DNA of 64,000 nucleotides from Candidatus Doudnabacteria bacterium RIFCSPHIGHO2_02_FULL_42_25 (GCA_001777665.1 MFEQ01000006.1:128880-192879); one strand, 5' to 3'; shown: positions 4,002 to 57,497, counted from the first letter of the stretch. Numbers and translations are program-made. Notes: generated from the sequence alone by a model not told the origin.

Positions 4002-4238
4002 AAAAAATAAAATGCCTTATTTCAGGGCATTGGCAAAAAACACAAGCCTTCTTTCATCCAGACTATACTGTCGCCCCCGGAATTACACCGGATCATGTCC
4101 CGAATCGGGACTCGCGGGGTTTACCGCCGGTGGGGACATTCTCCCCGCCCTGAAGGTTACTTATTGCTTTTATTATATTTAGTAAATAGTAATTAGTAAA
4201 GAGTAATAAGAATTCTAGCTCTTATTACTAATTACTTC

Positions 4239-17147: not shown

Positions 17148-18644
17148 TTATAACTTTCGAACGATACCCTTATTTGCATCCACTTCGACTTTGTCACCAT
17201 CTTTTAAAACCTTCGTTGCTATTTTGGTACCAATAATGCACGGGGTGCCTAGCTCGCGAGAAACAATTGCTGCATGAGAAGTAATGCCGCCTTGTTCAGT
17301 AATAATTGCCGCAGCTTTTTTCATCGCAGGTACTACATCAACATCTGTAGCGATACTAACCAAAATATCGCCTTGTTTCATCTTCGGCATGTCCTTTGCC
17401 CTGATGATTATTTTCACGGTTCCTTTTGCATAACCAGGTTGAACGGTTTGGCCTGTAAATTCTTTTACATTTTTATTGATCTTCGTGGCTACCATTGATC
17501 TCAACTTTTTTTCCATTGCTCCCATGTATACAGTTTCAAAACCCTCTTCAGTATAAAGGACACAATGTTTTAATCTTATAGACAAAATATTTTTATCTAT
17601 CCTGCCATTTAATAAAGCATCTTTGACTTCTGCTTGAAGCATAAATTGGAGTTGATACCTAGAAATTCCAAGACGTTTTGCAATTTCCTTGAGTAATGTT
17701 TTATGAACAAAATATAAATTTAAAAGCTGGGCGTTTCTGCGAATTAGTTTTGACAACGCAAAATCTTTGGCGTTTTCGAAAAGCCTTTTATATTGCACAG
17801 AGACTTTTAATTTTTTATAGATCTTTTTCTGCTTCTCTCTAGCGGTTTTCAAGTATTGTTCTTGCTTTGCCAATATTTTCTTGGTATTGATTCCTGTTTT
17901 CGCTAATTCGAATAATTCTTTGAGATAGTGATCCACTCCAAAGGGATCAACATTCCCAGCGTAAATGTAGCCGAGATGACCCCATTTTTGCGCATGCTTA
18001 GTTAGGGCATCTTTCAAATGCTGAGGTATAGTTCTCGCTTTAAGAAATTTTTTGTATTTCTCATGAATAACTAGGAAATCTTTCCGCTCATCGGCGACGA
18101 TAGTTTTCCTTGAGGGCGTAGTTAAAACAACAAATGCCTGTTCTGCCTCTTCTTTACTGTTACTAACTGCGTATAAATAGCTCTTTAATTTATTCGTGAA
18201 ATTATTATGAAATAAGTCTGCGGCAACCGGTATCCACCCATAGGTATAAAGTTTGGTCTGAAGCTTATCGGTATCCTTGTACAATTTCCAAAGCTGCTTA
18301 TTATTATATTTCTCAAGCGGTAACTTATCTAATTTCTTGGAAAACAAAATTAACTTATGGGACCAAGAAATAATGTTTCTATCCAGTTCTTTACCGAATT
18401 TAGGTCTTTCTAGCAATGCTCTTATAATTGATTCAGCAACTTCATTGGAGTCTTTTTCTCCAACATAAAAATCCAAAGTAAAACCTTTGTATAGTCCCAA
18501 GAACTTTTTGTATCTTTTTATAAAATCGTAACTCCAATCAGAAGCAAAACAAGAGGCCGGGACTTGGAAAAAATAAATATCGCAATCCGGAATATTTTCT
18601 CCAAAAAGCCACTTGTCCTTATCAAACAATAACTTCGGCTTCAT
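17148..18644 (-). CDS. Swivel-domain paralog G (long class)
   Basis: 498 aa. ...ITEQGGITSHAAIVSRELGTPCIIGTKIATKVLKDGDKVEVDANKGIVRKL. Overlaps H by 4 nt. Confidence 0.8.
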   Translation of the reverse strand: MKPKLLFDKDKWLFGENIPDCDIYFFQVPASCFASDWSYDFIKRYKKFLGLYKGFTLDFYVGEKDSNEVAESIIRALLERPKFGKELDRNIISWSHKLILFSKKLDKLPLEKYNNKQLWKLYKDTDKLQTKLYTYGWIPVAADLFHNNFTNKLKSYLYAVSNSKEEAEQAFVVLTTPSRKTIVADERKDFLVIHEKYKKFLKARTIPQHLKDALTKHAQKWGHLGYIYAGNVDPFGVDHYLKELFELAKTGINTKKILAKQEQYLKTAREKQKKIYKKLKVSVQYKRLFENAKDFALSKLIRRNAQLLNLYFVHKTLLKEIAKRLGISRYQLQFMLQAEVKDALLNGRIDKNILSIRLKHCVLYTEEGFETVYMGAMEKKLRSMVATKINKNVKEFTGQTVQPGYAKGTVKIIIRAKDMPKMKQGDILVSIATDVDVVPAMKKAAAIITEQGGITSHAAIVSRELGTPCIIGTKIATKVLKDGDKVEVDANKGIVRKL

Positions 18645-20107
18645 ACTTTTCTTACGATTCCTTTGTCTGCATCCACTTCAATCATATCCCCATCTTTAAA
18701 AAGCTTAGTTGCGAATTTAGTACCAATGACACACGGTTTCTTCATCTCGCGAGCAACAATTGCAGCATGAGATGTGATGCCTCCACTATCGGTAACGAAC
18801 CCACGCGCTCTGCCCATTGCGGGTAAAACATCTGGAGTTGTAGTAACCGCAACGAGAATATCGTCGTGGGTAACTTTTTGTAGATCTGGAATCCCAAACA
18901 CTAATTTCGCCCGTCCTCGTGCTTTGCCCGGGAATGCAGATTGACCCTCGATGTAATCTTGTTTAATCTCAATGGCTTTTTCAAGAATTCTACCCAAGGT
19001 CGCATCGATTTTATTTGCAGGAATAAACTTAATTTTTCTATTCGAAACAATTTTAAGCACTCGGTGCCTTCTCCTTAAAATTTCAACCGTATCTATTTTT
19101 TTACCTGAAACGAAATCTAAAATCTCGTTCCTTAGTGCATAGCGAAAAAAGTAAACAGGGACCGCATGTTTTTTTGCTAATTGAAGAAATACTGTCTCTA
19201 AAGCATATTGAATGACATGTCGAACATTTAGCCGATAGGCTTTCGTAAACATAAGCGTACGCGCTTGATCAAACATATAAATTTCGTGGTCGGATAACCC
19301 AAGATCTTTTTCTATTCTCCTTTGTTCTTTTTCTAAATTTCTGAAGTAGTTTCTATGTTCATTCAACTGCTCTTGAGCAGTTTTTTCATTCTTGAGAATT
19401 TTCCTCACTCTCTGAATAAAATCTTCATCTGTCCAAAGTGGACCTTGATAACCAAAATTTAACCACTTGTACTTTTTAGCATGGGCTTTAAATTTCTTGG
19501 AAACAACTATTTTATTGAGAGTTTTATACTGCTTTATTATTTCTAATAGTCTCAATAGCTCTGCCCAATTTAAATCAGGTTGATCGGGACTAATCAATAT
19601 TGCCAAATACTTCTGCGTGGGATTCTTGGGAGTACTATATTTCTCTAAAATTCCTGCGAGACGATTGCTGAAAAAATTGTGATCATAATCACTTACAACA
19701 GCTAAGCAGCCCAATCCGTTTAACTCAACGTAATGTTTGAACACTTGTTTTAGCCACGAAAGATATTTCTTATCATTCCACCTTCTCAAATCTTGATCAA
19801 TGACTTGATGAGCAAGTTTAAAGACAATTTGGCCATGATAAATATGCTCTTCTAAATTGCCGTGAGCATCTAGTTTTCCTTTGGTCAATCTATCTTGGAT
19901 TTTTTGGCCGAGTCTATTCCACAATTTAATATCTACACCCCATTGACCTTCATCCTGACTGACATGCATTACGGTGTTACTAAAATAGTCACCGACAAAT
20001 CGCTTTACAGATGGTGAGAACAGAAACCCATCCTCAATCATTGTCCATGAAAACAAGTTCATATTTGTTTCCATTATTAAGTTTTTTATCGAGTGCGGTT
20101 TAATCAT
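18641..20107 (-). CDS. Swivel-domain paralog H (long class)
   Basis: 488 aa. ...VTDSGGITSHAAIVAREMKKPCVIGTKFATKLFKDGDMIEVDADKGIVRKV. Overlaps the ATP-grasp gene by 4 nt. Confidence 0.8.
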   Translation of the reverse strand: MIKPHSIKNLIMETNMNLFSWTMIEDGFLFSPSVKRFVGDYFSNTVMHVSQDEGQWGVDIKLWNRLGQKIQDRLTKGKLDAHGNLEEHIYHGQIVFKLAHQVIDQDLRRWNDKKYLSWLKQVFKHYVELNGLGCLAVVSDYDHNFFSNRLAGILEKYSTPKNPTQKYLAILISPDQPDLNWAELLRLLEIIKQYKTLNKIVVSKKFKAHAKKYKWLNFGYQGPLWTDEDFIQRVRKILKNEKTAQEQLNEHRNYFRNLEKEQRRIEKDLGLSDHEIYMFDQARTLMFTKAYRLNVRHVIQYALETVFLQLAKKHAVPVYFFRYALRNEILDFVSGKKIDTVEILRRRHRVLKIVSNRKIKFIPANKIDATLGRILEKAIEIKQDYIEGQSAFPGKARGRAKLVFGIPDLQKVTHDDILVAVTTTPDVLPAMGRARGFVTDSGGITSHAAIVAREMKKPCVIGTKFATKLFKDGDMIEVDADKGIVRKV

Positions 20108-21039
20108 AGTGTTGTTATTGGTCTGCTTTGAGTAATGTAAAACTTACCCTTAACATAAGCCCACTCGATGTCTTGAGGATGTTTGTAATGTTTTTCAATA
20201 TTTTTTGCAATTTTAGCAAACTCTACAATTTGTTTACCAGTCAGTTTCTGTTTGCCACCGGCTCTTGGTGATAATTTTTTGTGCAAATTCTTATTCCCGG
20301 ATTTTACTATCATCATGCTTTGCTCCGAGACATTGATATCGAGAATAGAAAAATCATCTTTATGAACGATATATGTATCCGGAGTTACCGATCCTGAAAC
20401 AATCGCCTCGCCCAAACCAAAACCAGCTTCAATCACCATTTGATTATAATCTTTGGTCACTGGGTGTACCGTAAAGCAAATTCCAGAAACTTCGGATTGG
20501 ACCATGGTTTGGACGACTACTGCCACAGAAACAAATTTTTTGTGGAGTTTTTTCTCAAACCGATAAAAAATAGCTCGTGGAGTAAATAGTGATGACCAGC
20601 ATTTCTGGACATTTTTCAGCAAATCTTTTTCAGTAGTATTGAGGTAAGTTTCCAGCTGCCCTGCCCATGCATCAGTTGAGCTGTCTTCTGCGGTTGCCGA
20701 TGAACGCACAGCAACAAAACGACTTTTCAAAAGTTTGAAGTGCTTTTTAATTTTCTCGGCTATGTCCCTCGGCATTTTTGCACCAGCTATTAATGCTCTG
20801 ATTTTTTCCGAAGCCCGCTCGACACTATTGATATCTTTGTGATTAACTTTTTTCAAAATCGATTCAATCTCCACATCCAAATCAGTTTCTTTTAGAAACT
20901 GCTCAAAAGAAGATGCCAGCACGACGAAACCTGGCGGTACTGGAATTCGAGCATTCGTCATTTCACCAAGCGAAGCCCCTTTACCACCGGCTTCAGAAAC
21001 ACTCTTCTTATTTAGTTGTTTGAAAGATTTGATAAACAT
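20104..21039 (-). CDS. Stand-alone PEP-synthase/PPDK-type ATP-grasp nucleotide-binding domain protein (PPDK_N)
   Basis: 311 aa. SEAGGKGASLGEMTNARIPVPPGFVV (GGKGANLGEM...VP.GF signature) ... FVAVRSSATAEDS ... EIEWAYVKGKFYITQSRPIT (PPDK_N domain end). No swivel or TIM-barrel domain in this gene. Confidence 0.8.
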   Translation of the reverse strand: MFIKSFKQLNKKSVSEAGGKGASLGEMTNARIPVPPGFVVLASSFEQFLKETDLDVEIESILKKVNHKDINSVERASEKIRALIAGAKMPRDIAEKIKKHFKLLKSRFVAVRSSATAEDSSTDAWAGQLETYLNTTEKDLLKNVQKCWSSLFTPRAIFYRFEKKLHKKFVSVAVVVQTMVQSEVSGICFTVHPVTKDYNQMVIEAGFGLGEAIVSGSVTPDTYIVHKDDFSILDINVSEQSMMIVKSGNKNLHKKLSPRAGGKQKLTGKQIVEFAKIAKNIEKHYKHPQDIEWAYVKGKFYITQSRPITTL

Positions 21040-21655: not shown

Positions 21656-22225
21656 ATGAAAGATAAACTTTTGTTTGGAGTTGTGGGTTTGGTCTTAGGC
21701 ATTGTGGTTGTGCAATTCCTTCGTCCGTCCACGCCGATGATGATGGATAGTTCTAGTATGGATTATCAATTTATAAATCAAATGATCCCGCATCACGAAG
21801 ATGCCATCACGATGTCTGAATTGGCTTTGGAAAAAGCCGAACATGAGGAGATAAAAACTCTGGCCCAAAGCATTATCACCTCTCAATCCAAAGAAATTGA
21901 GCAGATGCAAGGATGGCAAAAAGATTGGTTTAGTAGCTTGTTTATTTCAAAAGCTTTAGCTCACGGCACGTCGCACGGGCTAAATATGGGTCTGATGGGT
22001 AATGAGAGTGACCTTGAAGAATTAGGAAACGCCCAACCGTTTGATAAAAAGTTTATCGAAGAAATGATCCCGCATCACCAGATGGCGGTAATGATGGCAC
22101 AAATGGTTTGGAACACTACAAATCGAGAGGAAATGAAACAATTAGCAAAAAATATTGTCACTGCGCAAAATCAAGAAATTGATCAAATGAGAAATTGGTA
22201 TAATCAGTGGTACAAATCAAATTAA
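21656..22225 (+). CDS. DUF305-family protein (duplicated four-helix metal-binding repeat), N-terminal TM/signal
   Basis: Two repeats of MIPHH(E/Q).A..M. ... QEI.QM. .W. Typical DUF305. Confidence 0.7.
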   Translation: MKDKLLFGVVGLVLGIVVVQFLRPSTPMMMDSSSMDYQFINQMIPHHEDAITMSELALEKAEHEEIKTLAQSIITSQSKEIEQMQGWQKDWFSSLFISKALAHGTSHGLNMGLMGNESDLEELGNAQPFDKKFIEEMIPHHQMAVMMAQMVWNTTNREEMKQLAKNIVTAQNQEIDQMRNWYNQWYKSN

Positions 22226-22360
22226 CTTGTAGCGAGGATTAAATTTTTGGACGCTTTGCGTATTTCTTCAGAAATCGCAACGCGAGTAAAAATCTACTCT
22301 GAAGTACATAACAGTTGCAGATTTTTACGTTCACAAAAATTTCAATCCGAGCGTTCTTGG

Positions 22361-22431
22361 TCGGGGTGCCGGGAATTGAACCCGGTCTACACCCACCCCA
22401 TGGGCGCGTACTACCGGTATACTACACCCCG
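22361..22431 (-). tRNA. tRNA-Pro (anticodon GGG)
   Basis: Hand-folded. Acceptor CGGGGTG/CACCCCG, anticodon stem CGCCC/GGGTG, loop ATGGGGT (U33, GGG, G37), T-arm CCGGG-TTCAATT-CCCGG, discriminator A. 71 nt, no encoded CCA. Confidence 0.8.
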
Positions 22432-23614
22432 TTCTTCGCAGACTCTATTATAGTTAATTTTTAGAGATAAAAAAAGAGGTCCAACTAGTTGCTAGTTGTA
22501 ACCTCGGTCCTCTTCGTGAGGATCGTCCTCGTCGCCAGGATCAGGACCGCTCTCGAAATCTGGCGGGGATTTCGAGTCAGACTCAGTCTGCTCAGGTACC
22601 AATGGTTCGGGACTCGACATACTCATCTTCTCTCTACTGTTTCAAACCGGGCGGCCAATCGTCGACCAAATCGGTCAAAGCGCGCCCCAACATTCACCTG
22701 AAGCTCGAAGGACTGGCTCGGCAGTTGTCGCTGCGGACAACACCTCCGATTGTGACCCGGCTGCCGGCATAGTGCACAAATCTTCTTTCTTCGTCCCTGG
22801 ATGTTCGACATGGACACTCCTATGTCTGGGTCTTGGGTTTGCAGGGTTGGATCGTAATGGGCATTCCCTTCTGACACCGACCACAGATTTTTCCTTCACG
22901 ACCAGCCTCGTCGTGAGATGGGTCAGGCTCATATCCGGCATTGCGTTCGAGTGTTGTGGGCGCCATGTTCACCTGCCTATCCGGCGTAGCGTTCGTTGAC
23001 GATGTCTTCATCCGGATCAACGTATTGAACCGGAGGGTGCCTTAGTTCTTCCTCCTGTGGAGTCATTCGTTCATCGTTCGACTGCTGGTGTGCGTCCATA
23101 ACCTGGCCTTCCTCCAGTATCAGCTGGGACATATGTTTCCTCCGTGACCTTGGTCTTGCTGTCTAGTGTAGTGTTGCTGAATTCACATCTCATGTTCCTA
23201 TTTTTCATAAAATCTGAATTCAGACTTGGCCAACAAAAATCCGACCACTTCGGTCGGTTCATTCAGCTTGATCTTTGATCGTTGTTACGTGATCATTGAC
23301 GCTTATCTGAACCGACTCGAACTGGGACTTGGTCAACCTTAATAATCCCCAAAACGATTTGGGCGATAGAGGAGATCAAGTTGTGGATAGTTAGTCGATT
23401 CATCCCGTTAGAAATAATGATTAGTTGCTTGATAATAATCGTTTATAATTGCCACACTAGATTATATTTTAACAATAGCTTTTTACTATGTCAAAATTTC
23501 TAACGGTATTCATAAACTTAGTAATATTATATAGCAGCAAAAAAACTAAGTCAACAAAGCCTATCACAATAGTTACCTATTTGCCCCATATGGGGCAAAT
23601 AGGTACTCACCGGA

Positions 23615-23645
23615 AAAGAAAAAAGGTCAAGAACGGGTCTTGACC
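23615..23645 (-). terminator. Rho-independent terminator (minus) after ORF 23662-23946; adjacent perfect palindrome 23576-23603
   Basis: ggtcaaga-acggg-tcttgacc stem with a T-run on the minus strand. Neighbouring cctatttgcccca-tat-ggggcaaatagg 12-bp stem. Confidence 0.5.
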
Positions 23646-23661
23646 TAAGGACTGAATCAGG

Positions 23662-23946
23662 TTACAGCCAGAGTGACAGCGGAGTGGGCTGCCATGTGCG
23701 ATTGAAGGCACGATGGCGCCTAGCCACCTCGGCGCGTTCACGTCTGACGTCGTTGAGGTACGTCAGATGGGTGATCTGCGTTTGTGCAGCTCTCAGCTGA
23801 TCTTCCTCAAGCCTCGTCCGCTCCGGCTTGGATTCAAAGCGTCGGACCTTTCTTAGCAGCGTTCTGATTTCCTTCTGACGACCGCTGATCGTGCGTAGGA
23901 GCGGATCCCGCATTGCAATGCCCGGTGTTTTCACAAACATTAGCAT
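23662..23946 (-). CDS. Hypothetical Arg-rich small protein in GC-rich island
   Basis: 94 aa ORF followed by a terminator. No motif. Coding status uncertain. Confidence 0.3.
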   Translation of the reverse strand: MLMFVKTPGIAMRDPLLRTISGRQKEIRTLLRKVRRFESKPERTRLEEDQLRAAQTQITHLTYLNDVRRERAEVARRHRAFNRTWQPTPLSLWL

Positions 23947-24663
23947 CTCCTCTACGACATAAACTCTGACGCTTTGCTTCCGGGTGGGGTCGAACCGACA
24001 TCGATGGGTCTTGCCGTTTTGCGACTGCCCGTCGGTGACGGGACAGCCTTGGGCTGCTTACCCTCTACAGCTGGATCGGGATCCACAGGACGGGTAACCT
24101 GCTCGGGTTTCAACGACATATTGTTATTCCCCCTTAAAGCTACGGCAGATAAAAAAAACACCAGCCGGATGGCTGGGTTCGGTTTGCGAAAATTTCTATG
24201 CAAACTCAACCAACCACCTCGGGATGGCTAAACCAAAAATAGAAATTCGGTCTGATTGATTGCATAACAAAAGTATTATAATGCCTAGGAACCAGAGAGT
24301 CAAGGCATAAAAAAGGACCCAGGCACCCTGAGAAGGGTGCACTGGGCTCAAGACGTACGACGCTAATTCCTCGGCGTCTTACGTCGATCGACTTTAGGCC
24401 GCAATCCAAGGAAACATGTCTGGTCCGATAACGCCTTTGGTGTCGTCCCGCTAGATACGCAGGCACAACTCAGGACGTCGACTCCCGCTTGCCTGATGAC
24501 GGTGACCTCTTTGTGATCACCAACTTCGATGAATTTTGCGGCAGTTTCTTCAGCTCTGGCCAATCAATCCTCCTATCAAGCAAACAAAAACACCGGCCAA
24601 CTGGGTCAGTGTTTGCATTTGCAAACCTTGAGTAAGTTTACATGTAGTTTAGCTTTGTGTCAA

Positions 24664-24755
24664 TAGGCGCGTCTGGCGTTATTCGTCGGCGCCACGCGTA
24701 TCGTCTGACGGTTACCGATACGCGCTGCGCTGCCGTACAATCATTAACGCATTTT
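24664..24755. repeat. GC-rich palindromic repeat element (copy 1) immediately 3' of parB
   Basis: cgttattcgtcg-gcgccacgcgtatcg-tctgacggttac-cgatacgcgctgcgc...ttaacgcatttt. Second, inverted copy at 52971-53040. Confidence 0.6.
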
Positions 24756-24756
24756 A

Positions 24757-25689
24757 TTACTCTTGAAGTCTCTTCACTTTGTCCAAGAAATTTTGGAGTT
24801 CTTCTTGGGAGAAAAATTCAATAGTGATTTTTCCGGCTTGGCCGCTTTTTTGAACCTTGACTTTGGTCCCAAATTTGCTGCGTAGATCACTTTCCAAAGC
24901 TGCAGACTCAGGATCAACTGGGCCTCGAGGCGCTTTGACCTGTTTCGGACGTTCCAGCATTTCTCGAACTTTGTCTTCGACTTGGCGCACAGTCATTTGT
25001 TGCAGGACGATCATATCGTACAAAGCCAACTGCTTCTCCATTCCTGGTAAAGCCAGGATAGACCGCGCATGCCCTTCAGTGATTTTACCTTCGGCGAGAG
25101 CATTTTGAATTTTCAGTGGCAAATTCAAAAGTCGCAACATATTCGTCACAGTTGTGCGACCCTTACCCACTTTCTTCGCAACTTCTTCTTGAGTCAGTTT
25201 GTACTGATCAATCAATTGTTTATAAGCCAGGGCTTCTTCGATCGGGTCTAGGTTATGACGCTGAATGTTTTCAATCAAAGCCAATTCCAATTTGTTCTGC
25301 TCTTCCAGATAATCGCGAATCACCACAGGGACTTTCGCCAACCCGGCCATTTTTGAAGCACGGAGTCTGCGTTCCCCGACGATCAACTGAAAAGTGCCAT
25401 CAGGAAGTGGAACCACAACCAACGGTTGCAGGATGCCGTGTTCTTTGATGGAAGCAGATAATTCAGCTAACTTTTCATCGTCAAAGACTCTTCGCGGCTG
25501 CCAGGGATTGGGTTTGATAATCTCGACTGGAATTTCCGCCATGCTGACCATGGGCAGATTCTCCGGTACGGCTTCCTTCACCGGTTCGGCCAGAGGCTCG
25601 GCCAATTCCATGGGGCTAGCAGGTGGCAGCTCTGGTGTTTCTACAATTTGAGAAATTGGTTCTAAAGGTTGTTGTGCTGGTTCATCCAT
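24757..25689 (-). CDS. parB: ParB/Spo0J partition protein with Pro/Glu-rich N-terminal extension
   Basis: QPRRVFDDEKLAELSASIKEHGILQPLVV...GERRLRA (ParB box II) ... HTH KVGKGRTTVTNMLRLL. No parA adjacent in this window. Confidence 0.85.
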   Translation of the reverse strand: MDEPAQQPLEPISQIVETPELPPASPMELAEPLAEPVKEAVPENLPMVSMAEIPVEIIKPNPWQPRRVFDDEKLAELSASIKEHGILQPLVVVPLPDGTFQLIVGERRLRASKMAGLAKVPVVIRDYLEEQNKLELALIENIQRHNLDPIEEALAYKQLIDQYKLTQEEVAKKVGKGRTTVTNMLRLLNLPLKIQNALAEGKITEGHARSILALPGMEKQLALYDMIVLQQMTVRQVEDKVREMLERPKQVKAPRGPVDPESAALESDLRSKFGTKVKVQKSGQAGKITIEFFSQEELQNFLDKVKRLQE

Positions 25690-29922: not shown

Positions 29923-32829
29923 TTACTTAACCACGAAATTTATCAATTTATCCTGAACGAAAATCTCTTTGACTATTTGTTTGCCTTCCAGGTGACGCTT
30001 GACGTTTGGATCTACTATCACTTTTAATCGAACTTCGTCTTGGGAGGTGCCTACAGGAAAATCCAAAGTCGCCCGAACCCGGCCCAAAACTTGTACAACT
30101 ATTTTTACGTTTTTATCTTCAGTCATTTTTTCATCAAACTTTGGCCAGGGTTGTGTATGGATAGAATCTGTCTGCCCAAGTTGGCTCCATAATTCCTCTG
30201 TGATGTGGGGAGCGAAAGGTGCTAGTAAAATCAAAAATGTTTCCCAGTTTGCTTTCGACATCTGTTTATTTTCATTCAGGAATTCCATAAACGCCGCAAT
30301 TGATGTGTTGAATTTAAAATTCGGAATATCTGAAGTGATTTTTTTGATGAGTTTGTGTAACCCCATCTCGACCGACGGGAGAGATCGCTCTTGAGAGGGA
30401 TTTCTCACTTCGTTCGAAATGGTTCTAAAAACCTTATCTAAGAACCTTCTAGCGCCGATTAGACCTTTGGTATTCCAAGGCTGACCATCTTCAAACGGTC
30501 CCATGAACATTTCATATATACGCATGGAATCAGCACCCACACTTTCCACCACTTCGTCAGGATTGACTACATTACCCCTACTCTTACTCATTTTCTGACC
30601 ATCCGCCCCTTGGATCAATCCGAGATGACGAAGTTTATTAAAGGGTTCTGCAACTTTCACAAATCCAGCGTCAAACAAAAATTTTGTTAAAAACCGGGAA
30701 TAAAGTAAGTGAAGTGTTGCGTGTTCGGGTCCGATGACATAAAGATCCACTGGCATCCAATGATCGACTTTTGACTGTTCAAAAATTTCTTGGTCATTAT
30801 GCGGATCAGTATATCGCAAATAATACCAAGAAGAATCAAAGAAAGTATCGAGAGTCTCTGGTTCTCTTTTGGCAGGTCCGCCACAATTCGGACAACTAAC
30901 ATTTAAGAATTGTTCTGAACTGGCGAGCGGAGGCATTCCTTTGGGGCGAAAATCGACATCGTCCGGCAGAACCACTGGTAAATCTTTTTCAGGGACTGGA
31001 TGAATTCCACATTTTTCGCAATTGATCATCGGGATGGGCACGCCCCAATATCGCTGCCTGGAGATAGACCAATCACGGAGTCGATACTGAACTTTAGGTG
31101 TACCGAAATCTTTAGCCATTTGAGATCTAATCGTCGAGGAACTAACATCATTGTATTTCCCAGAATTCATAATCCGACCTTCGCGAGTATAAGGTAGTCT
31201 GCGATCACCTTCATCATTCACCACCCGAACAATTGGCAATTCAAATTTTTTCGCAAATTCAAAGTCACGCTCATCGTGTGCCGGGACAGCCATAATCGCT
31301 CCTGATCCATAAGTCGACAACACATAATCCGCAACCCAGATTTGAATTTTATCTTTCGTTGCCGGGTTAATCGCAAAAGCCCCAGTGAATACTCCGGTTT
31401 TATCTTTTTCTAGAGCAGTGCGTTCTAGTTCAGTTTTCTTAGCTGCACTTTCTACGTAGTTAACTACGTAGTTTTTCTGTTCTTTGGTCGTAATCTGGCT
31501 AACTAGAGGATGTTCTGGAGCCAAAACCATATACGTCGCACCAAAAATTGTATCCGGCCGGGTCGTGAAAACTTTTATTTTTGGTAAAACAACTTTGAGC
31601 AACTCTGGTTCTTGTAGATCAGTAAAATGTTGTTTAGACGCAGTAGTTTCAAAAAACCCTGAACCAAGCTTCTCTTTTAAGAATTTTAAATACTCTCCCC
31701 GTTTCTTGTCCTCTAACAAATCAGATACCACGGTTCGAAATTTCGTTAACTCTTTTACTTTCTCATAATCGATATCCCAACTAAAGTTTTTCCAAAACGG
31801 TCGTTCTATAGAGCCTGGGAATGTTTTATCAGTAGCAGAAGCAATCAAAATTAATCCCATAATACGACTGTTGTGTCTCATTAGCACTTTTTGCGCGACA
31901 ACACAACCTAAACTATGACCAACGATAATTGTATTCTTATCAATTTTACAATTTTGTAAAACAAAATTAACTTGCTCTTCCTCTTTAGGATCATTGCTAT
32001 TTGGCATTTCAGGAGCTTGAACTTTATACCCTTTACTCTCAATTTCTTGCTTCAACCAAGGAATAAAATTTTTGCCTGGCAAACCAGTATAGCCGTGCAG
32101 AATCAAAAAATTTGGCTCGGATTCAAAGTCAACTTTGAAATCAATATCAGCACCTTCAGACCGGCCGATCCAGTTCTTTTGCATTTGCTTCGTGGCTTCC
32201 GGCCAGTCCAGTCCGTCTAAGTCCGCGAGCAGTCTGTCCGCATAGTCCGTGATTTTGAGAAACCACTGTTCCATTTCTTTCTGGATGACCACTGTACCAC
32301 AACGATCGCACTTACCATCTATTACCTGTTCATTAGCCAGAACTGTTTGATCGTTTGGACACCAGTTGATTTTGGCTTTGGCGCGATAAGCTAACCCTTT
32401 CTTATAGAGCTGGATAAATAACCACTGAGTCCATTTGTAATAATCCGGGCTCGATGTATTGATTTCTCGATCCCAATCATAAGACAGTCCAAACATCTGG
32501 ACTTGGCGTTTGAAATTGGCAATATTTTCCGCTGCAACTTCTTTTGGATTCTTCCCGACCTTGATCGCATAATTTTCTGTAGGCAACCCAAAAGCATCCC
32601 AACCCATGGTGTAGAGCACTTCTTTACCATTGGCACGCGTAAATCTAGCATGAATGTCTTCCGCGATATAACCTTTCGGATGCCCGACATGAAGACCTGC
32701 TGCTGATGGGTAAGGGAAAGTTTCTAATTGATAGAACTTGGGCTTCTTTGAATCATCCTTGGCTTGATAAAGTTTATTATCTGCCCAAAATTTTTGCCAT
32801 TTTGATTCTATTTCTTTGTGGTTATACAT
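29923..32829 (-). CDS. leuS: Leucyl-tRNA synthetase with inserted alpha/beta serine-hydrolase domain
   Basis: HIGH (LHVGHP), KMSKS (KMSKSRGN), editing-domain motifs FTTRPDT and AVPAHDERD. Extra ~185 aa between NWIGRSEG and the CP1 domain carries LILHGYTG...IIVGHSLGCV (GxSxG). Start taken at MYNHKEIESKWQKFW (32829). Confidence 0.9.
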   Translation of the reverse strand: MYNHKEIESKWQKFWADNKLYQAKDDSKKPKFYQLETFPYPSAAGLHVGHPKGYIAEDIHARFTRANGKEVLYTMGWDAFGLPTENYAIKVGKNPKEVAAENIANFKRQVQMFGLSYDWDREINTSSPDYYKWTQWLFIQLYKKGLAYRAKAKINWCPNDQTVLANEQVIDGKCDRCGTVVIQKEMEQWFLKITDYADRLLADLDGLDWPEATKQMQKNWIGRSEGADIDFKVDFESEPNFLILHGYTGLPGKNFIPWLKQEIESKGYKVQAPEMPNSNDPKEEEQVNFVLQNCKIDKNTIIVGHSLGCVVAQKVLMRHNSRIMGLILIASATDKTFPGSIERPFWKNFSWDIDYEKVKELTKFRTVVSDLLEDKKRGEYLKFLKEKLGSGFFETTASKQHFTDLQEPELLKVVLPKIKVFTTRPDTIFGATYMVLAPEHPLVSQITTKEQKNYVVNYVESAAKKTELERTALEKDKTGVFTGAFAINPATKDKIQIWVADYVLSTYGSGAIMAVPAHDERDFEFAKKFELPIVRVVNDEGDRRLPYTREGRIMNSGKYNDVSSSTIRSQMAKDFGTPKVQYRLRDWSISRQRYWGVPIPMINCEKCGIHPVPEKDLPVVLPDDVDFRPKGMPPLASSEQFLNVSCPNCGGPAKREPETLDTFFDSSWYYLRYTDPHNDQEIFEQSKVDHWMPVDLYVIGPEHATLHLLYSRFLTKFLFDAGFVKVAEPFNKLRHLGLIQGADGQKMSKSRGNVVNPDEVVESVGADSMRIYEMFMGPFEDGQPWNTKGLIGARRFLDKVFRTISNEVRNPSQERSLPSVEMGLHKLIKKITSDIPNFKFNTSIAAFMEFLNENKQMSKANWETFLILLAPFAPHITEELWSQLGQTDSIHTQPWPKFDEKMTEDKNVKIVVQVLGRVRATLDFPVGTSQDEVRLKVIVDPNVKRHLEGKQIVKEIFVQDKLINFVVK

Positions 32830-32837
32830 GAATTCTC

Positions 32838-32912
32838 CTGCCCGCCCGCAACGCCTGAGCAAGACCGCAAGCAAAAAAATCAGGCTTGCGATGGCGGGCG
32901 GGCCATTTCTTT
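32838..32912. repeat. GC-rich long hairpin repeat (copy 1) in leuS 5' region
   Basis: cccgcccgcaacgcctgagcaaga...tcaggcttgcgatggcgggcggg. Reverse complement of 63058-63122 has the same arms with a different loop. Confidence 0.65.
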
Positions 32913-47679: not shown

Positions 47680-47900
47680 GTATACCCTTTTTGTTTCCGC
47701 ATTTGTGCAAAGCACAGAAGTTGTAACAGTTGGTCAATATTTGGCCAACTAATACAGCCTCTTTGCTATCAGCACTCTACGGAATTAATTATTATTACTT
47801 CTACGAAAGTACGAATTCTCGAATTACGAACTGTTCGCCCGCCTGCCATGACGGCATGTCGGGCAGGTAGTTTCGCAATTTCGTATTTCGTAGAAGACAA

Positions 47901-48167
47901 CTACTTGTTTAACTTGAGCTTGTCCGTCAGCTTATCCCAGCGCTTTTCATCTTCGACTTTCAAATAGCGAAGCAGTCTACGACGATTGCCGACCATTTTC
48001 AGAAGACCTCGACGAGAGTGGTTGTCTTTTTTGTGCTCATTGAGATGCTCGGAAACTTTTTCAATTTCTCGAGTCAAAATCGCAACCTGTACTTCTGGAC
48101 TCCCAGTGTCGTCTTTGTGAACCTGGAATTTCTTAATAATTTGCTCTTTCTCTTTAGGAGTTAACAT
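47901..48167 (-). CDS. rpsO: 30S ribosomal protein S15
   Basis: [35 protein letters not shown]...[29 protein letters not shown]. Confidence 0.95.
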
Positions 48168-48260
48168 CTAGTTCCTTTCTGCACGAGTCAGCCAGAGATT
48201 AGCTAACCGTGGATTAATTCTCATTGATTCTAACATAATCAGTTTGTTTTGACAAGATAG

Positions 48261-49357
48261 TGTCCTGGTTCATATGATACCCTGCAATTGACTGGAAGAA
48301 ATTATGAGGGGCAGATACTCTGGTAGGACTATGACAACATATGGATATATCCTTCCTGGAGCAAGTAAGATTGCAAGATTAGCAACTAGTCTAAGCTCCA
48401 AAGCCAAACATCGAATTAAAGTCATTGACTGGTATAGAGCTCATGGCAAGAACAAAAGCTTAACAGCTAGGTATTTTGGAATGAACCGAGAGACATTGGA
48501 TATCTGGCTTGATCGGTTCAAGCTTCAAGGCATCAAAGGCTTGGAGGATCGATCGCATAGACCTAAACATTTAAGAACTACGAGCACGCCTTTGCCAGTC
48601 CAAGATGAAGTAGTCAAACTCAGAAAAGCTTTCCCGTATTACTCTAAATACAAAATCGTTCATTTGCTCTCAACGAAAATTAGTTCATCAACTGTCGGTA
48701 GGATATTAAAAAAGAAAGATTTAATTAATCCCAAAGTATCTAGAAAGAAAATTAAAGCAGCTAAGCACCCCAAGAAGCGATTTCCAAGGGAGTTAGTCGT
48801 AAATATGCCAGGAAAACTAATCCAAATTGATACTAAGCATCTGAGAACCTTTCAGGGAGTAAAGATCTACCAGTTCACGGCTATTGATGTTTTAACCAAA
48901 GTTCGAGTGCTTTGGGTGAGTACACATTTATCATCTGTCATGGCTGCAAAGTTCTTAAGGCACTGTGTTAGAAGTTTCCCCTTTAAGATCGAGAATATTC
49001 AAACAGACAATGGTTCAGAATTTAACAAACATTTTGACCGTTTGTGCCAGAAGCTTGGAAACACCCATTATTACATCGAGGCACACAGTCCCCAGCAGAA
49101 CAGCTACGTCGAACGCTCACACTTAACTGATGAGCTTGAGTTTTATCAGCAAGGTAACATGCATAATACTTTGGGCCAATTGCTTCCAAGGCTTAAGGCT
49201 TGGGAACATCAGTACAATCACCAAAGACCACATCAATCGCTCAACTACTTAACACCGATTCAGTATTTAAAAAAGTATCAAACTGAAACTTTAGCCACTA
49301 AAGATTACGTTGCATTACAAACTAACTAACTGTCGGATATCTATCTGAACCTAGACA
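48261..49357 (+). mobile_element. IS481-family-like insertion sequence with ~22-bp imperfect terminal IRs and 5-bp TSD (gatag)
   Basis: IRL tgtcctggttcatatgatacc (48261-) versus rc of IRR tgtctaggttcagatagatatcc (-49357). gatag at 48256-48260 and 49358-49362. Confidence 0.7.
48304..49329 (+). CDS. DDE transposase (HTH + rve integrase core)
   Basis: N-terminal HTH. Catalytic core IQIDTKHL...FTAIDVLTK...IQTDNGSEF...SPQQNSYVERSH (D, D, 35, E). Confidence 0.85.
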   Translation: MRGRYSGRTMTTYGYILPGASKIARLATSLSSKAKHRIKVIDWYRAHGKNKSLTARYFGMNRETLDIWLDRFKLQGIKGLEDRSHRPKHLRTTSTPLPVQDEVVKLRKAFPYYSKYKIVHLLSTKISSSTVGRILKKKDLINPKVSRKKIKAAKHPKKRFPRELVVNMPGKLIQIDTKHLRTFQGVKIYQFTAIDVLTKVRVLWVSTHLSSVMAAKFLRHCVRSFPFKIENIQTDNGSEFNKHFDRLCQKLGNTHYYIEAHSPQQNSYVERSHLTDELEFYQQGNMHNTLGQLLPRLKAWEHQYNHQRPHQSLNYLTPIQYLKKYQTETLATKDYVALQTN

Positions 49358-49416
49358 GATAGCTTTTCAAAACAAAATAAGCTATGCTTACGGCTCAGAA
49401 CAGAGGAGGAGTCACC

Positions 49417-57492: not shown

Positions 57493-57497
57493 ACGAC

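What the first reader, a model, noticed from the sequence alone, without database searches (positions are those of the whole stretch)
22440..24756. About 2.3 kb GC-rich, ORF-poor island next to tRNA-Pro: overlapping short ORFs, a CCHC zinc-knuckle-like peptide, perfect hairpins; possible structured RNA(s) or decayed foreign DNA
From just past tRNA-Pro to parB, the sequence is GC-rich. It has only short, mutually overlapping ORFs on the minus strand (84, 88, 66, 63, 94 aa), which fits non-coding or decayed DNA. One frame contains CALCRQPGHNRRCC, a CX2CX4HX4C zinc knuckle that is unusual in bacteria. A 44-codon acidic ORF (22495-22626, minus) follows an SD-less ATG. The AT-rich core 23290-23570 has no ORF but carries promoter-like boxes. 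It is followed by a perfect 12-bp-stem palindrome (cctatttgcccca-tat-ggggcaaatagg) and a terminator. At 24040-24075 the minus strand reads GGGTAAGCAGCCCAAGGCTG. This faintly recalls the SRP-RNA helix-8 3' strand (GGAAGCAGCCAAGGCAG), but I could not fold a full 4.5S. A segment at 23975-24040 translates as GGVEPT, typical of tRNA T-arms, yet gave no cloverleaf by hand.
Basis: partly seen in the sequence, partly recalled or inferred. Interest (0 to 1): 0.55.

Follow-up and report, generated by a model that had tools for sequence, protein, structure and literature searches.

The report
Attenuator-controlled tiny-gene operons beside parB
The "ORF-poor GC-rich island" is three compact operons of very small, fast-evolving protein genes in a Candidate Phyla Radiation bacterium, two of them preceded by a conserved leader RNA that holds a short reading frame and competing terminator/antiterminator hairpins, which looks like classical ribosome-sensing attenuation used in an unexpected place.

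Summary
The window is a Candidatus Doudnabacteria (CPR) genome. The same 2.3 kb lies in 8 contigs from several metagenome assemblies, so it is not an assembly join. Rfam and ARAGORN find no SRP, tmRNA or extra tRNA there.

Everything is on the minus strand. There are three promoter-to-terminator units carrying seven tandem small ORFs (44-94 aa). Six have Shine-Dalgarno-like sites and one starts at an ATGA overlap. The "overlapping ORFs" come from extending each ORF to its longest form.

The low-GC stretches are the conserved part:
- **Element 1** (24148-24268) has 12 copies in relatives, eight of them just downstream of parB.
- **Element 2** (23231-23413) has 15 copies.

Each has a consensus promoter and an ATG 6-14 nt after the -10 box (62 nt in the window's element 2). 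The short ORF stays open in 12/12 and 14/15 copies. Each also has segments that pair either as antiterminator or as intrinsic terminator, with covariation.

Ten of 12 element-1 peptides carry [F/Y]-W-[F/Y]. The copy upstream of an aspartokinase gene has Lys-Lys at that position.

Best reading: ribosome-mediated attenuators controlling orphan tiny proteins, including a conserved CCHC zinc knuckle. This is a new variant of a known mechanism. What the proteins do is unknown.

The parts
24679..24740 (-). GC-rich imperfect hairpin directly after the parB stop, with no U-run. It may be the parB 3' end structure.
   Evidence: Inverted repeat I3. Fold energy -33.8 kcal/mol, z = -2.9.
24635..24663 (-). 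Promoter-like site of unit A (TTGACA-17-TAAACT).
   Evidence: 10 of 12 consensus positions.
24580..24622 (-). 5'-truncated copy of element 1. It keeps the hairpin GTTTGC..GCAAAC and an imperfect terminator with TTTTTGTTTGC, followed by the canonical AGGAGGATTG. It has no leader ORF and no segments 1 and 2.
   Evidence: Partial nhmmer match to profile positions 79-132, E = 0.005. Sequence read.
24363..24563 (-). p66, a 66-aa ORF (TTG start, AGGAGG 6 nt upstream) with a basic C-terminal tail.
   Evidence: No Pfam, PHROGs, PADLOC or NCBIfam match.
24309..24346 (-). Intrinsic terminator of unit A.
   Evidence: stem 24332-24318 plus U-run. The longer stem was read.
24275..24303 (-). Promoter of unit B (TTGACT-17-TATAAT).
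   Evidence: 11 of 12 consensus positions. A promoter sits at the same position in all nine element-1 copies inspected.
24148..24268 (-). Element 1, a conserved leader RNA. It comprises a leader ORF, hairpin P0, segment 1 (TTAGCCATC), segment 2 (GGTGGTTGG), hairpin GTTTGC..GCAAAC, and segments 3 and 4 (terminator CCAGCC..GGCTGG plus U8).
   Evidence: blastn to relatives. nhmmer E = 3.8e-30. Covariance model 102.7 bits. Covariation counts. Ribosome-masking folds.
24206..24265 (-). Leader ORF of element 1: MQSIRPNFYFWFSHPEVVG*. Its ATG lies 9 nt after the -10 box with no SD, so it is near-leaderless. Its stop codon directly follows segment 2.
23952..24119 (-). p55, a proline-rich 55-aa ORF (GGGGG upstream).
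   Evidence: Called as a gene in two public contigs.
23662..23946 (-). p94, a basic, predicted helical small protein. The real start is probably the ATG at 23940, giving 92 aa with GAGGAG 6 nt upstream.
   Evidence: Public gene calls of 92 or 94 aa. No homologue other than itself.
23614..23646 (-). Intrinsic terminator of unit B.
   Evidence: 9-pair stem plus U-run.
23574..23605 (.). Perfect 32-nt palindrome, TACCTATTTGCCCCAT|ATGGGGCAAATAGGTA, 20 nt upstream of the -35 box of unit C. Its role is unknown; a protein binding site or an insulating hairpin are possible.
   Evidence: No counterpart was seen in L009 or L011.
23526..23554 (-). First promoter of unit C (TTGACT-17-TATAAT). It is followed by a truncated duplicate of the element-2 start: ATGAAT at 23513 opening a 14-codon ORF.
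   Evidence: 11 of 12. Sequence read.
23466..23494 (-). Second promoter of unit C (TTGACA-17-TAAAAT, with an extended TG).
   Evidence: 11 of 12 consensus positions.
23231..23413 (-). Element 2, a conserved leader RNA. It comprises segment 1 (ATGAATCGAC, including the start codon), an internal hairpin CCCAAA..TTTGGG, segment 2 (GTCGGTTCA), segment 3 (TGAACCGAC) and segment 4 (GGTCGG plus U-run).
   Evidence: Alignment A1. nhmmer E = 1.7e-33. Pair counts. Folds.
23293..23403 (-). Leader ORF of element 2: MNRLTIHNLISSIAQIVLGIIKVDQVPVRVGSDKRQ*. Its stop lies 12 nt after segment 2.
23177..23223 (-). Conserved hairpin (CTGAATTCAG .. GTGAATTCAG) between the element-2 terminator and the first SD of unit C. 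It is shared with L011.
   Evidence: Inverted repeat I6. Sequences read.
22977..23132 (-). p51, an acidic 51-aa ORF (GGAGG upstream) ending in ..NERYAG.
   Evidence: Gene calls. Similar C-terminal ends (..RYPG..LYPG..RYAG) occur in L010, L009 and L013.
22820..22966 (-). p48, a 48-aa ORF containing CGRC...C (AGGTG upstream).
   Evidence: Gene call. Weak match to the double zinc ribbon family, E = 0.04.
22623..22811 (-). p62, a basic 62-aa ORF with a CX2CX4HX4C zinc knuckle (CALCRQPGHNRRCC).
   Evidence: Homologues in L010 and L034. zf-CCHC_2 match at 15.5 bits, below the cut-off. phmmer hits to proteins with many CCHC knuckles.
22492..22626 (-). p44, an acidic 44-aa ORF whose ATG overlaps the p62 stop codon (ATGA).
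22469..22505 (-). Intrinsic terminator of unit C. It overlaps the p44 stop codon.
22358..22431 (-). tRNA-Pro (GGG), the boundary of the locus.

Best explanation
**What it is.** The island is a conserved chromosomal module of Candidatus Doudnabacteria, lying between parB and tRNA-Pro. It consists of three minus-strand transcription units that encode seven tiny proteins of 44-94 aa: basic zinc-knuckle or helical ones and acidic ones. Units B and C are each preceded by a conserved leader RNA that works as a ribosome-mediated transcription attenuator.

**Element 1 (24148-24268), proposed steps**
1. Transcription starts a few nucleotides before a short ORF, MQSIRPNFYFWFSHPEVVG.
2. If the ribosome runs through to the stop codon, it covers segment 2. 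Segments 3 and 4 then form the terminator, and transcription ends before p55/p94.
3. If the ribosome stalls on the aromatic codons, it covers segment 1. Segment 2 is freed to pair with segment 3 as an antiterminator, and the polymerase reads into the tiny genes.

**Element 2 (23231-23413).** The logic is the same with a 36-codon ORF. Its start region (ATGAATCGAC) is itself segment 1. Its stop codon lies just past segment 2 (GTCGGTTCA), which is complementary to the 5' half of the terminator.

**Shown by the sequence data**
- The promoters, terminators, SD-linked tandem ORFs and conserved leaders.
- Short ORFs that stay open across copies.
- Alternative pairings with covariation.

**Inferred, not shown**
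- That translation of the leader decides termination.
- That aromatic-tRNA supply is the signal for element 1.
- What the tiny proteins do. They are probably nucleic-acid-binding basic proteins with acidic partners, switched on when translation falters.
For: **Organism and reality of the sequence**
- The organism is identified from exact and related contigs.
- The region is 99.96-100% identical in 8 contigs from several metagenome assemblies.

**Unit anatomy**
- Promoter and terminator sites.
- The minus strand was read.
- ORF table with SD sites.

**Conserved architecture in relatives**
- parB followed by element 1, small genes, element 2 and small genes (reaching tRNA-Pro in L009, L010, L011 and L015), in relatives with 67-77% ParB identity.
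- nhmmer and the covariance model find 12 copies of element 1 and 15 of element 2.
- Only the leaders cross-match by blastn, plus a short stretch at the tRNA-Pro edge in L009; the cargo genes do not.

**Leader ORFs**
- In all nine element-1 copies inspected, the ATG lies 6-10 nt after a TTGAC-17-TATAAT-type promoter.
- The leader frame is open in 12/12 copies of element 1 and 14/15 of element 2.
- The other two frames carry stops. In element 1 this is so in 7/9 and 4/9 of the nine copies counted; in element 2 in 15/15 and 14/15.
- Element-2 ORF lengths differ mostly by multiples of 3: 11 of 13 copies.

**Structure**
- Element-2 antiterminator core: 8 of 9 pairs are intact in every copy. Terminator: 98.7% of cells paired, with compensatory A-U to G-C changes.
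- The internal hairpin covaries: GCCAAA/TTTGGC against CCCAAA/TTTGGG and TCCCA/TGGGA.
- Helix extensions covary: GGAAT/ATTCC and TCTTTTA/TAAAAGA.
- Element 1: 80% of cells paired, and 20 of 26 pairs change on both sides. No shuffle out of 500 reached the observed values. Covariation score is 0.355, against 0.133 or less with slid partners.

**Ribosome-masking folds**
- Element 1: a stall at the aromatic or Lys codons removes the terminator in 7/9 copies. A ribosome at the stop codon keeps it.
- Window copy of element 1: the antiterminator is the minimum-energy fold with F8, Y9 or F10 in the A site, and also before segment 4 has been transcribed.
- Element 2: a mid-ORF stall gives the antiterminator in 13/13 copies. 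A ribosome at the stop gives the terminator in 11/13.

**Regulatory codons**
- [F/Y]-W-[F/Y] occurs in 10 of 12 element-1 peptides, with TTT/TTC and TAT/TAC variation.
- Trp is enriched 4.3-fold and Phe 2.4-fold in these peptides.
- The L010a copy has Lys-Lys at that position and precedes an aspartate kinase whose best match is the lysine-sensitive type.
Against: - There are no expression, termination or ribosome data. Every mechanistic step is in silico.
- Masking segment 2 removes the antiterminator by construction, so part of the folding test is circular.
- The Trp codon also lies in the 3' arm of a conserved hairpin (CCAA..TTGG). RNA pairing alone could keep it.
- The covariation count for element 1 was made on an alignment fitted to the model.
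- Element 2 shows no clear run of one amino acid. Q, N, I and V are only 1.6-2.0-fold enriched.
- The invariant third codon positions of CTTAATATTG point to RNA-level constraint rather than peptide-level constraint.
- One element-2 copy (L035) has a broken ORF.
- The window's element 2 has an unusually long 5' stretch (62 nt after the -10 box) and no SD.
- The regulated genes have nothing to do with aromatic amino acids. They are not specifically poor in Trp: 0.95-fold after element 1.
- The Lys-Lys/aspartokinase case is a single observation.
Confidence: 0.6

Rival explanations
1. The two leaders are ligand- or protein-binding riboswitch-like RNAs. A closing helix (ATGAA..GAC pairing with GTC..TTCAT) would enclose a small aptamer, with a terminator/antiterminator expression platform. 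The short ORFs would be incidental or secondary.
For: - The architecture matches an OFF-type riboswitch. The 3' strand of the closing helix is also the 5' strand of the antiterminator.
- Covariation in the internal hairpin is produced by non-synonymous double changes.
- CTTAATATTG is invariant, including its third codon positions.
- L011 and L013 read GTCGGTTC in a different frame from the other copies.
Against: - The frame starting at an invariant ATG is open in 12/12 and 14/15 copies, while the other frames are full of stops.
- Length changes are mostly in-frame.
- The ATG is kept even where its pairing partner has changed, in the window copy and in L013.
- The stop codon always falls within about 18 nt after segment 2.
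- The aromatic run tolerates F/Y swaps.
- The enclosed domain is small and poorly conserved.
- No Rfam family matches.
Confidence: 0.15
2. The leaders are independent genes whose own terminators simply end them. They would be small RNAs, dual-function RNAs or small peptide genes (for example membrane-active type I toxin-like peptides). The tiny-protein operons downstream would be transcribed separately or by leakage.
For: - Each leader is a complete promoter-to-terminator unit of about 120 or 180-290 nt.
- Some element-2 peptides are hydrophobic with a basic tail, for example MNPFLTNIISQITQIILGLLILVPTPVGSYRKR.
- Element-2 peptides cluster at the protein level.
Against: - No separate promoter was found between either leader terminator and the first SD in the window.
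- The antiterminator that competes with each terminator is conserved and covaries. A plain terminator would not need one.
- Several element-2 peptides are not hydrophobic, in L012 and L013.
- No convincing antisense promoter exists; plus-strand sites reach only 9 of 12.
- There are no PADLOC or Pfam matches.
Confidence: 0.12
3. The island is a remnant of a foreign integrated element at tRNA-Pro, or decayed or pseudogenised DNA whose short ORFs are meaningless.
For: - It is adjacent to a tRNA gene.
- GC content is above the genome level, and cargo GC3 is 0.53-0.62 against 0.40 for host genes.
- The proteins have no detectable homologues.
Against: - The same module sits at the same place in relatives with ParB identity down to 67%.
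- There is no integrase and no tRNA-derived direct repeat.
- The element-2 pattern has no match in viral contigs.
- The ORFs are tandem, and all but one have an SD-like site; two are coupled by an ATGA overlap.
- The CCHC protein and the gene order are conserved with L010 and L034.
- The promoters and terminators are intact and close to consensus.
Confidence: 0.05
4. The GC-rich segments are themselves large structured non-coding RNAs, such as an SRP-like, tRNA-like or new RNA.
For: - The p55/p94 segment folds somewhat better than shuffled versions, with z = -2.45.
- In a low-GC genome, GC-rich islands often mark structured RNAs. This is general knowledge, not a test made here.
Against: - There is no Rfam match even at E <= 10, and no extra tRNA or tmRNA.
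- The p51-p44 segment has z = +0.47.
- These segments are not conserved at the DNA level in relatives, whereas the low-GC leaders are.
- The ORF arrangement shows the marks of coding sequence.
Confidence: 0.04

Closest known systems
Leader-peptide (ribosome-mediated) transcription attenuators of amino-acid operons: trpL, pheL (pheA), pheM (pheST), hisL, leuL, thrL, ilvL
   Same: - A short ORF sits in the 5' leader.
- Four segments can form either 1:2 plus 3:4 (the terminator) or 2:3 (the antiterminator).
- The stop codon is placed so that a terminating ribosome covers segment 2.
- In element 1, a run of codons of one chemical class (Phe/Tyr/Trp) lies just 5' of segment 1, as in pheL and trpL. 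The classical model is established knowledge; pheL codon runs are described in PMC3082878 (found).
   Different: - There is no sequence or covariance-model match to any Rfam family, including the leader families I recall Rfam holding.
- The leader ORFs have no SD and start 6-10 nt after the -10 box, so they are near-leaderless.
- The regulated genes are orphan proteins of 44-94 aa, not biosynthetic enzymes or tRNA synthetases.
- The host is a CPR bacterium. The paper library holds no report of such attenuators in CPR bacteria.
- In element 2, segment 1 contains the start codon itself.
Translation-sensing leader ORF attenuators of antibiotic-resistance and stress genes (for example the bmrB-bmrCD, vmlR and erm/cat type leaders; recalled from my own knowledge)
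   Same: Stalling of a ribosome on a short upstream ORF, rather than a specific metabolite, switches a downstream terminator or hairpin. This would fit element 2, which has no obvious single regulatory amino acid.
   Different: No resistance gene lies downstream. No sequence relationship was tested or seen. The peptide motifs differ.
OFF-type transcriptional riboswitches
   Same: A closing helix shares a strand with the antiterminator, and an intrinsic terminator lies upstream of the SD of the first gene.
   Different: A maintained ORF runs through the would-be aptamer. No ligand pocket is conserved and no Rfam family matches.
CCHC zinc knuckle (Pfam zf-CCHC PF00098 / zf-CCHC_2 PF13696)
   Same: p62 has the exact CX2CX4HX4C spacing with basic flanks. 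Its residues 6-30 match proteins made of many tandem CCHC knuckles.
   Different: p62 has a single knuckle in a 62-aa bacterial protein. Its Pfam score is below the cut-off (15.5 against 27 bits). Only two clear relatives exist, both in the same operon type in related genomes.

Membership tests
Ribosome-mediated leader-peptide transcription attenuator (mechanistic class) | A short translated ORF in the 5' leader, upstream of the structural genes | tested here: met
   - The ORF is present and open in 12/12 copies of element 1 and 14/15 of element 2.
- The ATG is invariant and sits at a fixed distance from the -10 box in the nine element-1 copies inspected.
- The other two frames are rich in stops.
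- Translation itself was not measured.
Ribosome-mediated leader-peptide transcription attenuator (mechanistic class) | Mutually exclusive terminator (3:4) and antiterminator (2:3) pairings, with an anti-antiterminator (1:2) | tested here: met
   Per-copy folds and pair counts with covariation.
Ribosome-mediated leader-peptide transcription attenuator (mechanistic class) | An intrinsic terminator (GC stem plus U-run) before the first structural gene | tested here: met
   Sites at 24176-24150 and 23257-23231. Conserved in all copies.
Ribosome-mediated leader-peptide transcription attenuator (mechanistic class) | A run of regulatory codons placed so that a stalled ribosome masks segment 1 | tested here: inconclusive
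   - Element 1: [F/Y]-W-[F/Y] occurs in 10/12 copies directly 5' of segment 1. One copy has Lys-Lys before an aspartokinase gene.
- The Trp codon is also part of a conserved hairpin, so RNA pairing could explain it.
- Element 2: no clear run; Q, N, I and V are mildly enriched.
Ribosome-mediated leader-peptide transcription attenuator (mechanistic class) | The regulated genes make or charge the sensed amino acid | tested here: not met
   The window cargo are orphan tiny proteins with no family match. Only L010a, with its aspartokinase, fits this feature.
Ribosome-mediated leader-peptide transcription attenuator (mechanistic class) | Read-through depends on leader translation and charged-tRNA supply in vivo or in vitro | not testable with these tools
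   This needs Term-seq, reporter assays or coupled transcription-translation assays.
Rfam families for amino-acid operon leaders (I recall Trp, Phe, His, Leu and Thr leader families; not checked here) | A covariance-model match at or near the gathering score | tested here: not met
   cmscan of 22200-25000 at E <= 10 lists no leader family. No match in the island reaches a gathering score.
   Only tRNA-Pro is found, at 22358-22431.
tRNA-targeted integrative island | An integrase gene and a direct repeat of the tRNA 3' end at the far boundary; absence from related genomes | tested here: not met
   There is no long ORF and no tRNA-Pro-derived repeat. The module is present at the same site in relatives.
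zf-CCHC zinc knuckle | CX2CX4HX4C spacing and a Pfam match above the cut-off | tested here: inconclusive
   - The spacing is met in p62 and in its L010 and L034 relatives.
- Pfam zf-CCHC_2 scores 15.5 bits, below the 27-bit cut-off.
- phmmer finds proteins with many CCHC knuckles.
Type I toxin-antitoxin | A small hydrophobic peptide gene with an overlapping or adjacent antisense RNA | tested here: not met
   - Hydrophobicity is inconsistent among the copies.
- There is no strong antisense promoter.
- There are no PADLOC matches for the seven cargo proteins; the leader peptides are shorter than that tool handles well.

The most novel reading that the evidence does not exclude
Doudnabacteria, and perhaps other CPR lineages, carry a multi-copy regulatory cassette not described before. 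In it, near-leaderless leader peptides with aromatic-codon runs (element 1), or a start codon embedded in the switch helix (element 2), report ribosome stalling. Stalling would reflect how much amino acid the host supplies to these reduced-genome episymbionts. The cassettes would switch on batteries of fast-evolving, GC-rich tiny proteins: a CCHC knuckle, CxxC ribbons and acidic partners. Together these would form a starvation or host-interaction response anchored next to parB.
Probability: 0.3. Interest if true: 0.7.

Novelty: new variant of a known kind. Interest (0 to 1): 0.55.

Why it matters
- **Regulation in CPR bacteria.** These organisms have tiny genomes, are thought to depend on hosts for amino acids, and are almost unstudied at the level of gene regulation. 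Two conserved, covarying leader RNAs that look like classical attenuators would be an early example of a cis-regulatory mechanism specific to this group. It is testable with existing groundwater metatranscriptomes or cell-free systems.
- **Use of attenuation.** It would extend leader-peptide attenuation to leaderless leader ORFs and to targets that are not biosynthetic genes.
- **Small proteins.** It flags a family of conserved-in-place but rapidly diverging small proteins, including a eukaryote-style CCHC knuckle, that standard annotation misses or leaves as isolated hypothetical ORFs.
- **Genome scanning.** It shows that 'ORF-poor' regions in such genomes can be dense with genes below the usual length cut-offs.

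Tried and rejected
- **Rfam** at gathering scores and at E <= 10: nothing in the island except tRNA-Pro. The weak rnk_pseudo hit at 24148-24245 only reflects a hairpin plus terminator.
- **Protein family libraries** (Pfam, PHROGs, PADLOC, NCBIfam) on the seven small proteins: no significant match.
- **Large protein database.** The 94-aa protein finds only itself. An alignment of the three CCHC proteins finds nothing at E <= 0.01.
- **p66 against the L011 64-aa protein.** I thought these were homologous by eye. BLASTP finds no alignment, so the claim is dropped.
- **Starvation-adapted cargo.** I tested whether cargo proteins avoid aromatic residues. Phe and Tyr are low, but Trp is not low after element 1 (0.95-fold). 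The pattern is explained by GC bias, so the idea is rejected.
- **Phage origin.** The element-2 pattern has 0 hits in viral contigs.
- **parS site.** No parS-like site lies near parB. The only weak match in the window is at 37303, which is chance level.
- **RNAalifold on the MAFFT alignment of element 2** recovered only the terminator. The other helices needed per-sequence folding and named structures.
- **Antiterminator of element 1.** It could not be counted in one column register, because the copies pair in shifted registers. The evidence for it is per copy.
- **One malformed structure string** was rejected by the tool and gave no result.
- **Strain variation.** The eight public contigs are identical or differ by one base, so they give no information on substitution patterns.

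Full report
**1. Source and reality of the sequence**

- The ParB protein encoded at 24757-25689 (minus) and the 94-aa ORF at 23662-23946 occur with identical sequence on public contigs. These come from the Rifle aquifer and other metagenomes, including GCA_001780055.1.
- The closest species-level genomes are Candidatus Doudnabacteria and other Patescibacteria, with ParB 67-77% identical.
- Window 22200-25000 is 99.96-100% identical in eight contigs from several metagenome assemblies. The island is therefore not an assembly join.
- Because these contigs are nearly identical, they give no information on substitution patterns.

**2. Check of the observation**

- The span between tRNA-Pro (22358-22431, minus) and parB has no ORF of 100 aa or more, in an otherwise densely coded window.
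- GC content is 0.489 against 0.416 for the window, but it is not uniform:
  - three blocks reach 0.53-0.57;
  - two low-GC blocks of 0.35-0.41 separate them.
- The palindrome is a perfect 16+16 nt palindrome at 23574-23605. It is unique in the window and has fold z = -5.7.
- Rfam finds nothing in the island but tRNA-Pro, either at gathering scores or at E <= 10. ARAGORN finds no further tRNA or tmRNA.
- The SRP-like and T-arm-like strings lie inside a 55-codon ORF.

**3. Anatomy on the minus strand, the strand of parB and tRNA-Pro**

Promoter-like and terminator-like sites are in excess over shuffles: 7 against 2.9, and 8 against 3.0. All strong ones are on the minus strand. Reading 5' to 3':

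- **Unit A**
  - Promoter at 24663-24635.
  - A short hairpin plus an imperfect terminator.
  - AGGAGG, then p66 (24563-24363).
  - Terminator at 24346-24309.
- **Unit B**
  - Promoter at 24303-24275 (11 of 12 consensus positions).
  - A 120-nt leader ending in a terminator at 24176-24150.
  - SD, then p55 (24119-23952), then p94 (23946-23662). The likely real start of p94 is 23940, giving the 92 aa of the public gene calls.
  - Terminator at 23646-23614.
- **Palindrome** at 23605-23574.
- **Unit C**
  - Two promoters, at 23554-23526 and 23494-23466 (both 11 of 12).
  - A leader ending in a terminator at 23257-23231.
  - A conserved hairpin at 23223-23177.
  - Four tandem ORFs:

| ORF | Coordinates | Upstream signal | Note |
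|---|---|---|---|
| p51 | 23132-22977 | GGAGG | acidic |
| p48 | 22966-22820 | AGGTG | contains CGRC |
| p62 | 22811-22623 | GGAG | CCHC knuckle |
| p44 | 22626-22492 | ATGA overlap with the p62 stop | acidic |

  - Terminator at 22505-22469.

The 'mutually overlapping' ORFs of the finding arise only from extending each frame to its farthest start. Public gene callers had already called the 92, 55, 51 and 48 aa ORFs.

**4. Comparison with relatives**

- Of the parB-containing relatives L009-L015, six have an ORF-poor, locally GC-rich stretch after parB (L009, L011, L012, L014, L015 and L010). In L010 an aspartokinase gene is inserted. In L009, L010, L011 and L015 the stretch ends at tRNA-Pro.
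- blastn of the island against these loci matches only the two low-GC leaders (plus a short stretch at the tRNA-Pro edge in L009), not the GC-rich parts.
- Reading L009, L010 and L011 shows the same order. It runs parB, consensus promoter, leader 1, SD and small ORF(s), terminator, promoter, leader 2, hairpin, SD and 3-5 small ORFs, terminator, tRNA-Pro.
- Further copies of leader 2 followed by small GC-rich ORFs lie elsewhere in L009, L012 and L013.
- A pattern search of metagenome contigs gave six more distinct copies, plus two false positives. Viral contigs gave none.
- Profile and covariance-model searches bring the totals to 15 copies of element 2 and 12 full copies of element 1. Eight element-1 copies lie just downstream of parB (within about 300 nt), one in each of the eight genomes compared. 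There is also the truncated copy in unit A.

**5. Element 2 (window 23231-23413)**

*Promoter and ORF*
- All 13 copies inspected have TTGAC-N17-TAnAnT. An ATGAA follows 8-14 nt after the -10 box in most copies. The window copy has 62 nt, and also a truncated duplicate of the start at 23513.
- From that ATG a frame of 29-37 codons is open in 14 of 15 copies. The other two frames carry stops in 15 and 14 copies.
- The distance from the ATG to the invariant GTCGGTT is a multiple of three in 11 of 13 copies.
- The peptides cluster by BLASTP.

*RNA-level constraint*
- GTCGGTTCA is complementary to TGAACCGAC, which forms the 5' half of the terminator CCGACC-N5-GGTCGG-U.
- Eight of the nine core pairs are intact in every copy. 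One copy has the compensatory TCG/CGA change.
- The helix is extended by covarying sequences: GGAAT/ATTCC, TCTTTTA/TAAAAGA and others.
- The terminator is 98.7% paired, with A-U to G-C exchanges.
- The start region ATGAAnnGAC pairs with GTCGGTTCAT; 83% of cells are paired.
- An internal hairpin covaries through non-synonymous double changes.
- L011 and L013 read GTCGGTTC in another frame.

*Position of the stop codon and masking folds*
- The leader stop codon ends 16-27 nt after the start of GTCGGTT. A terminating ribosome would therefore cover that segment.
- A ribosome stalled mid-ORF gives the antiterminator in 13/13 copies.
- A ribosome at the stop gives the terminator in 11/13 copies.
- Free RNA is split, 6 terminator and 7 antiterminator.

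**6. Element 1 (window 24148-24268)**

*Promoter and ORF*
- All nine copies inspected have TTGAC-N17-TATAAT/TATACT. An ATG follows 6-10 nt after the -10 box, with no SD.
- The ORF of 16-31 codons is open in all 12 copies.
- Ten peptides contain [F/Y]-W-[F/Y], often within a longer aromatic run such as FYFWF or FWFYF. F/Y swaps and synonymous codon changes occur, and the run sits directly 5' of segment 1.
- Trp is 4.3-fold and Phe 2.4-fold enriched over the window's proteins.
- The L010a copy has Lys-Lys at that position. It precedes a 477-aa aspartate kinase whose best NCBIfam match is the lysine-sensitive type.

*Structure and masking folds*
- On a model-fitted alignment of the 12 copies, the OFF-state structure consists of hairpin P0, the 1:2 pairing, hairpin P2 and the 3:4 pairing.
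  - 80% of cells are paired.
  - 20 of 26 pairs show double-sided changes.
  - It exceeds all 500 shuffles and all slid controls.
- Whole four-segment sets change in concert. Examples are GCCATC/GGTGGT/AGCCATC/GGCTGG against CCGAC/GTCGG/CCGAC/GTCGG.
- Masking a ribosome stalled at the aromatic (or Lys) codons removes the terminator in 7 of 9 copies. A ribosome at the stop keeps it.
- For the window copy, the antiterminator is the minimum-energy fold with F8, Y9 or F10 in the A site. It is also the minimum before segment 4 is made. With W11 in the A site the two folds tie, at -21.0 against -21.5 kcal/mol.

**7. The cargo genes**

- None of the seven proteins matches Pfam above cut-off, PHROGs, PADLOC or NCBIfam.
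- Two large protein searches found no relatives.
- Within the related loci, p62 has clear relatives with an invariant C-x2-C-x4-HNRR-x-C, in L010 and L034.
- The order of gene types in unit C parallels L010: an acidic protein ending in RY[AP]G, a CxxC protein, the CCHC protein, and a last ORF.
- Other small clusters link relatives to each other: C-terminal ..GYGHGV proteins and coiled-coil proteins.
- A full HMMER scan with p62 hits proteins built of many CCHC knuckles, so the motif is a true CCHC knuckle.
- The cargo is rich in Arg, Pro, Cys and Gln. Its GC3 is 0.53-0.62, against 0.40 for host genes.
- The p51-p44 block has no excess RNA structure (z = +0.47). The p55/p94 block has some (z = -2.45).

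**8. Interpretation**

- The best-supported reading is that the island is a set of operons for tiny proteins controlled by two related families of leader-ORF attenuators.
- These elements work like trpL/pheL-type attenuators. They are not members of any Rfam family, including its amino-acid leader families.
- They differ from the classical cases in three ways. The leader ORFs are near-leaderless, their targets are not biosynthetic genes, and element 2 places the start codon inside the switch helix.
- The signal for element 1 is most simply aromatic aminoacyl-tRNA supply. The Lys-Lys/aspartokinase variant supports codon-specific sensing, but it is a single case. The Trp codon is also held by an RNA hairpin.
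- Element 2 may sense general translation speed.
- My estimated probabilities:
  - units, small genes and conserved switching leaders: about 0.85;
  - ribosome-mediated attenuation: about 0.6;
  - aromatic specificity: about 0.35.
- Searches of the paper library found no description of such elements in CPR bacteria.

**9. What remains unexplained**

- The function of the tiny proteins.
- Why the cargo is GC-rich in every relative.
- The 32-nt palindrome.
- The truncated element 1 in unit A.
- The duplicated 5' part of element 2 in this genome.

Noticed in passing
window 4042-4161 (-): An FMN riboswitch, 98.3 bits, well above the gathering score of 66.2.
   Followed up: no
window ~47700-52000: Gene orientation flips here. 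Minus-strand ORFs run up to 47715 and plus-strand ORFs start at 48304. The cumulative GC skew reaches its minimum near 51-52 kb. This may be the replication origin region. It lies about 23 kb from parB.
   Followed up: no
window 29923-32874 (-): The 983-aa leucyl-tRNA-synthetase-like ORF carries precomputed Pfam hits to alpha/beta-hydrolase families (Abhydrolase_1, Ser_hydrolase). These lie between the tRNA-synt_1 parts. This is an unusual inserted domain.
   Followed up: no
window 23574-23605: A perfect 32-nt palindrome lies 20 nt upstream of the -35 box of unit C. It is unique in the window, has z = -5.7, and has no counterpart in L009 or L011. Its role is unknown.
   Followed up: partly
window 24679-24740 (-): A GC-rich hairpin lies right after the parB stop, with no U-run (z = -2.9). 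No parS-like site is nearby.
   Followed up: partly
window 23385-23525 (-): This genome has a truncated duplicate of the element-2 start: promoter 23554-23526 plus ATGAAT at 23513. It also has an 11-bp long-range stem, ACCGUUAGAAAU/AUUUCUAACGG, that ends just 5' of the real leader ATG.
   Followed up: partly
window 23177-23223 (-); L011 11848-11892; L009 11682-11716; L032, L033, L010, L030, L034: A second conserved hairpin lies between the element-2 terminator and the first SD. It comes in two sequence types, CTGAATTCAG..GTGAATTCAG and ATGGATGCAGATGAA... In the second L009 copy, an anti-SD CCTCC pairs with the SD GGAGG.
   Followed up: no
L009 11331-11409; L013 13755-13835: A tRNA-Val gene sits between the element-1 unit and the element-2 unit in two relatives.
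   Followed up: no
element-2 copies in L009, L010, L013, L032-L036: The covariance model built from element 1 also aligns end to end to element-2 copies, at weak scores (E = 0.02-0.4). The two leaders may share ancestry.
   Followed up: no
L010 10859-12444: In this relative, an element-1 copy with a Lys-Lys leader peptide (MNLQISQFVSKKGRHLVG) precedes a lysine-sensitive-type aspartate kinase gene inserted after parB.
   Followed up: partly
window 17148-21039 (-): Three adjacent ORFs carry separate pieces of PEP-utilising / PPDK-type enzymes: PPDK_N of 311 aa, and PEP-utilizers of 488 and 498 aa.
   Followed up: no
window 57000-59000: A second GC-rich stretch (0.53) covers plus-strand ORFs 56830-57492 and 57456-58823.
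   Followed up: no
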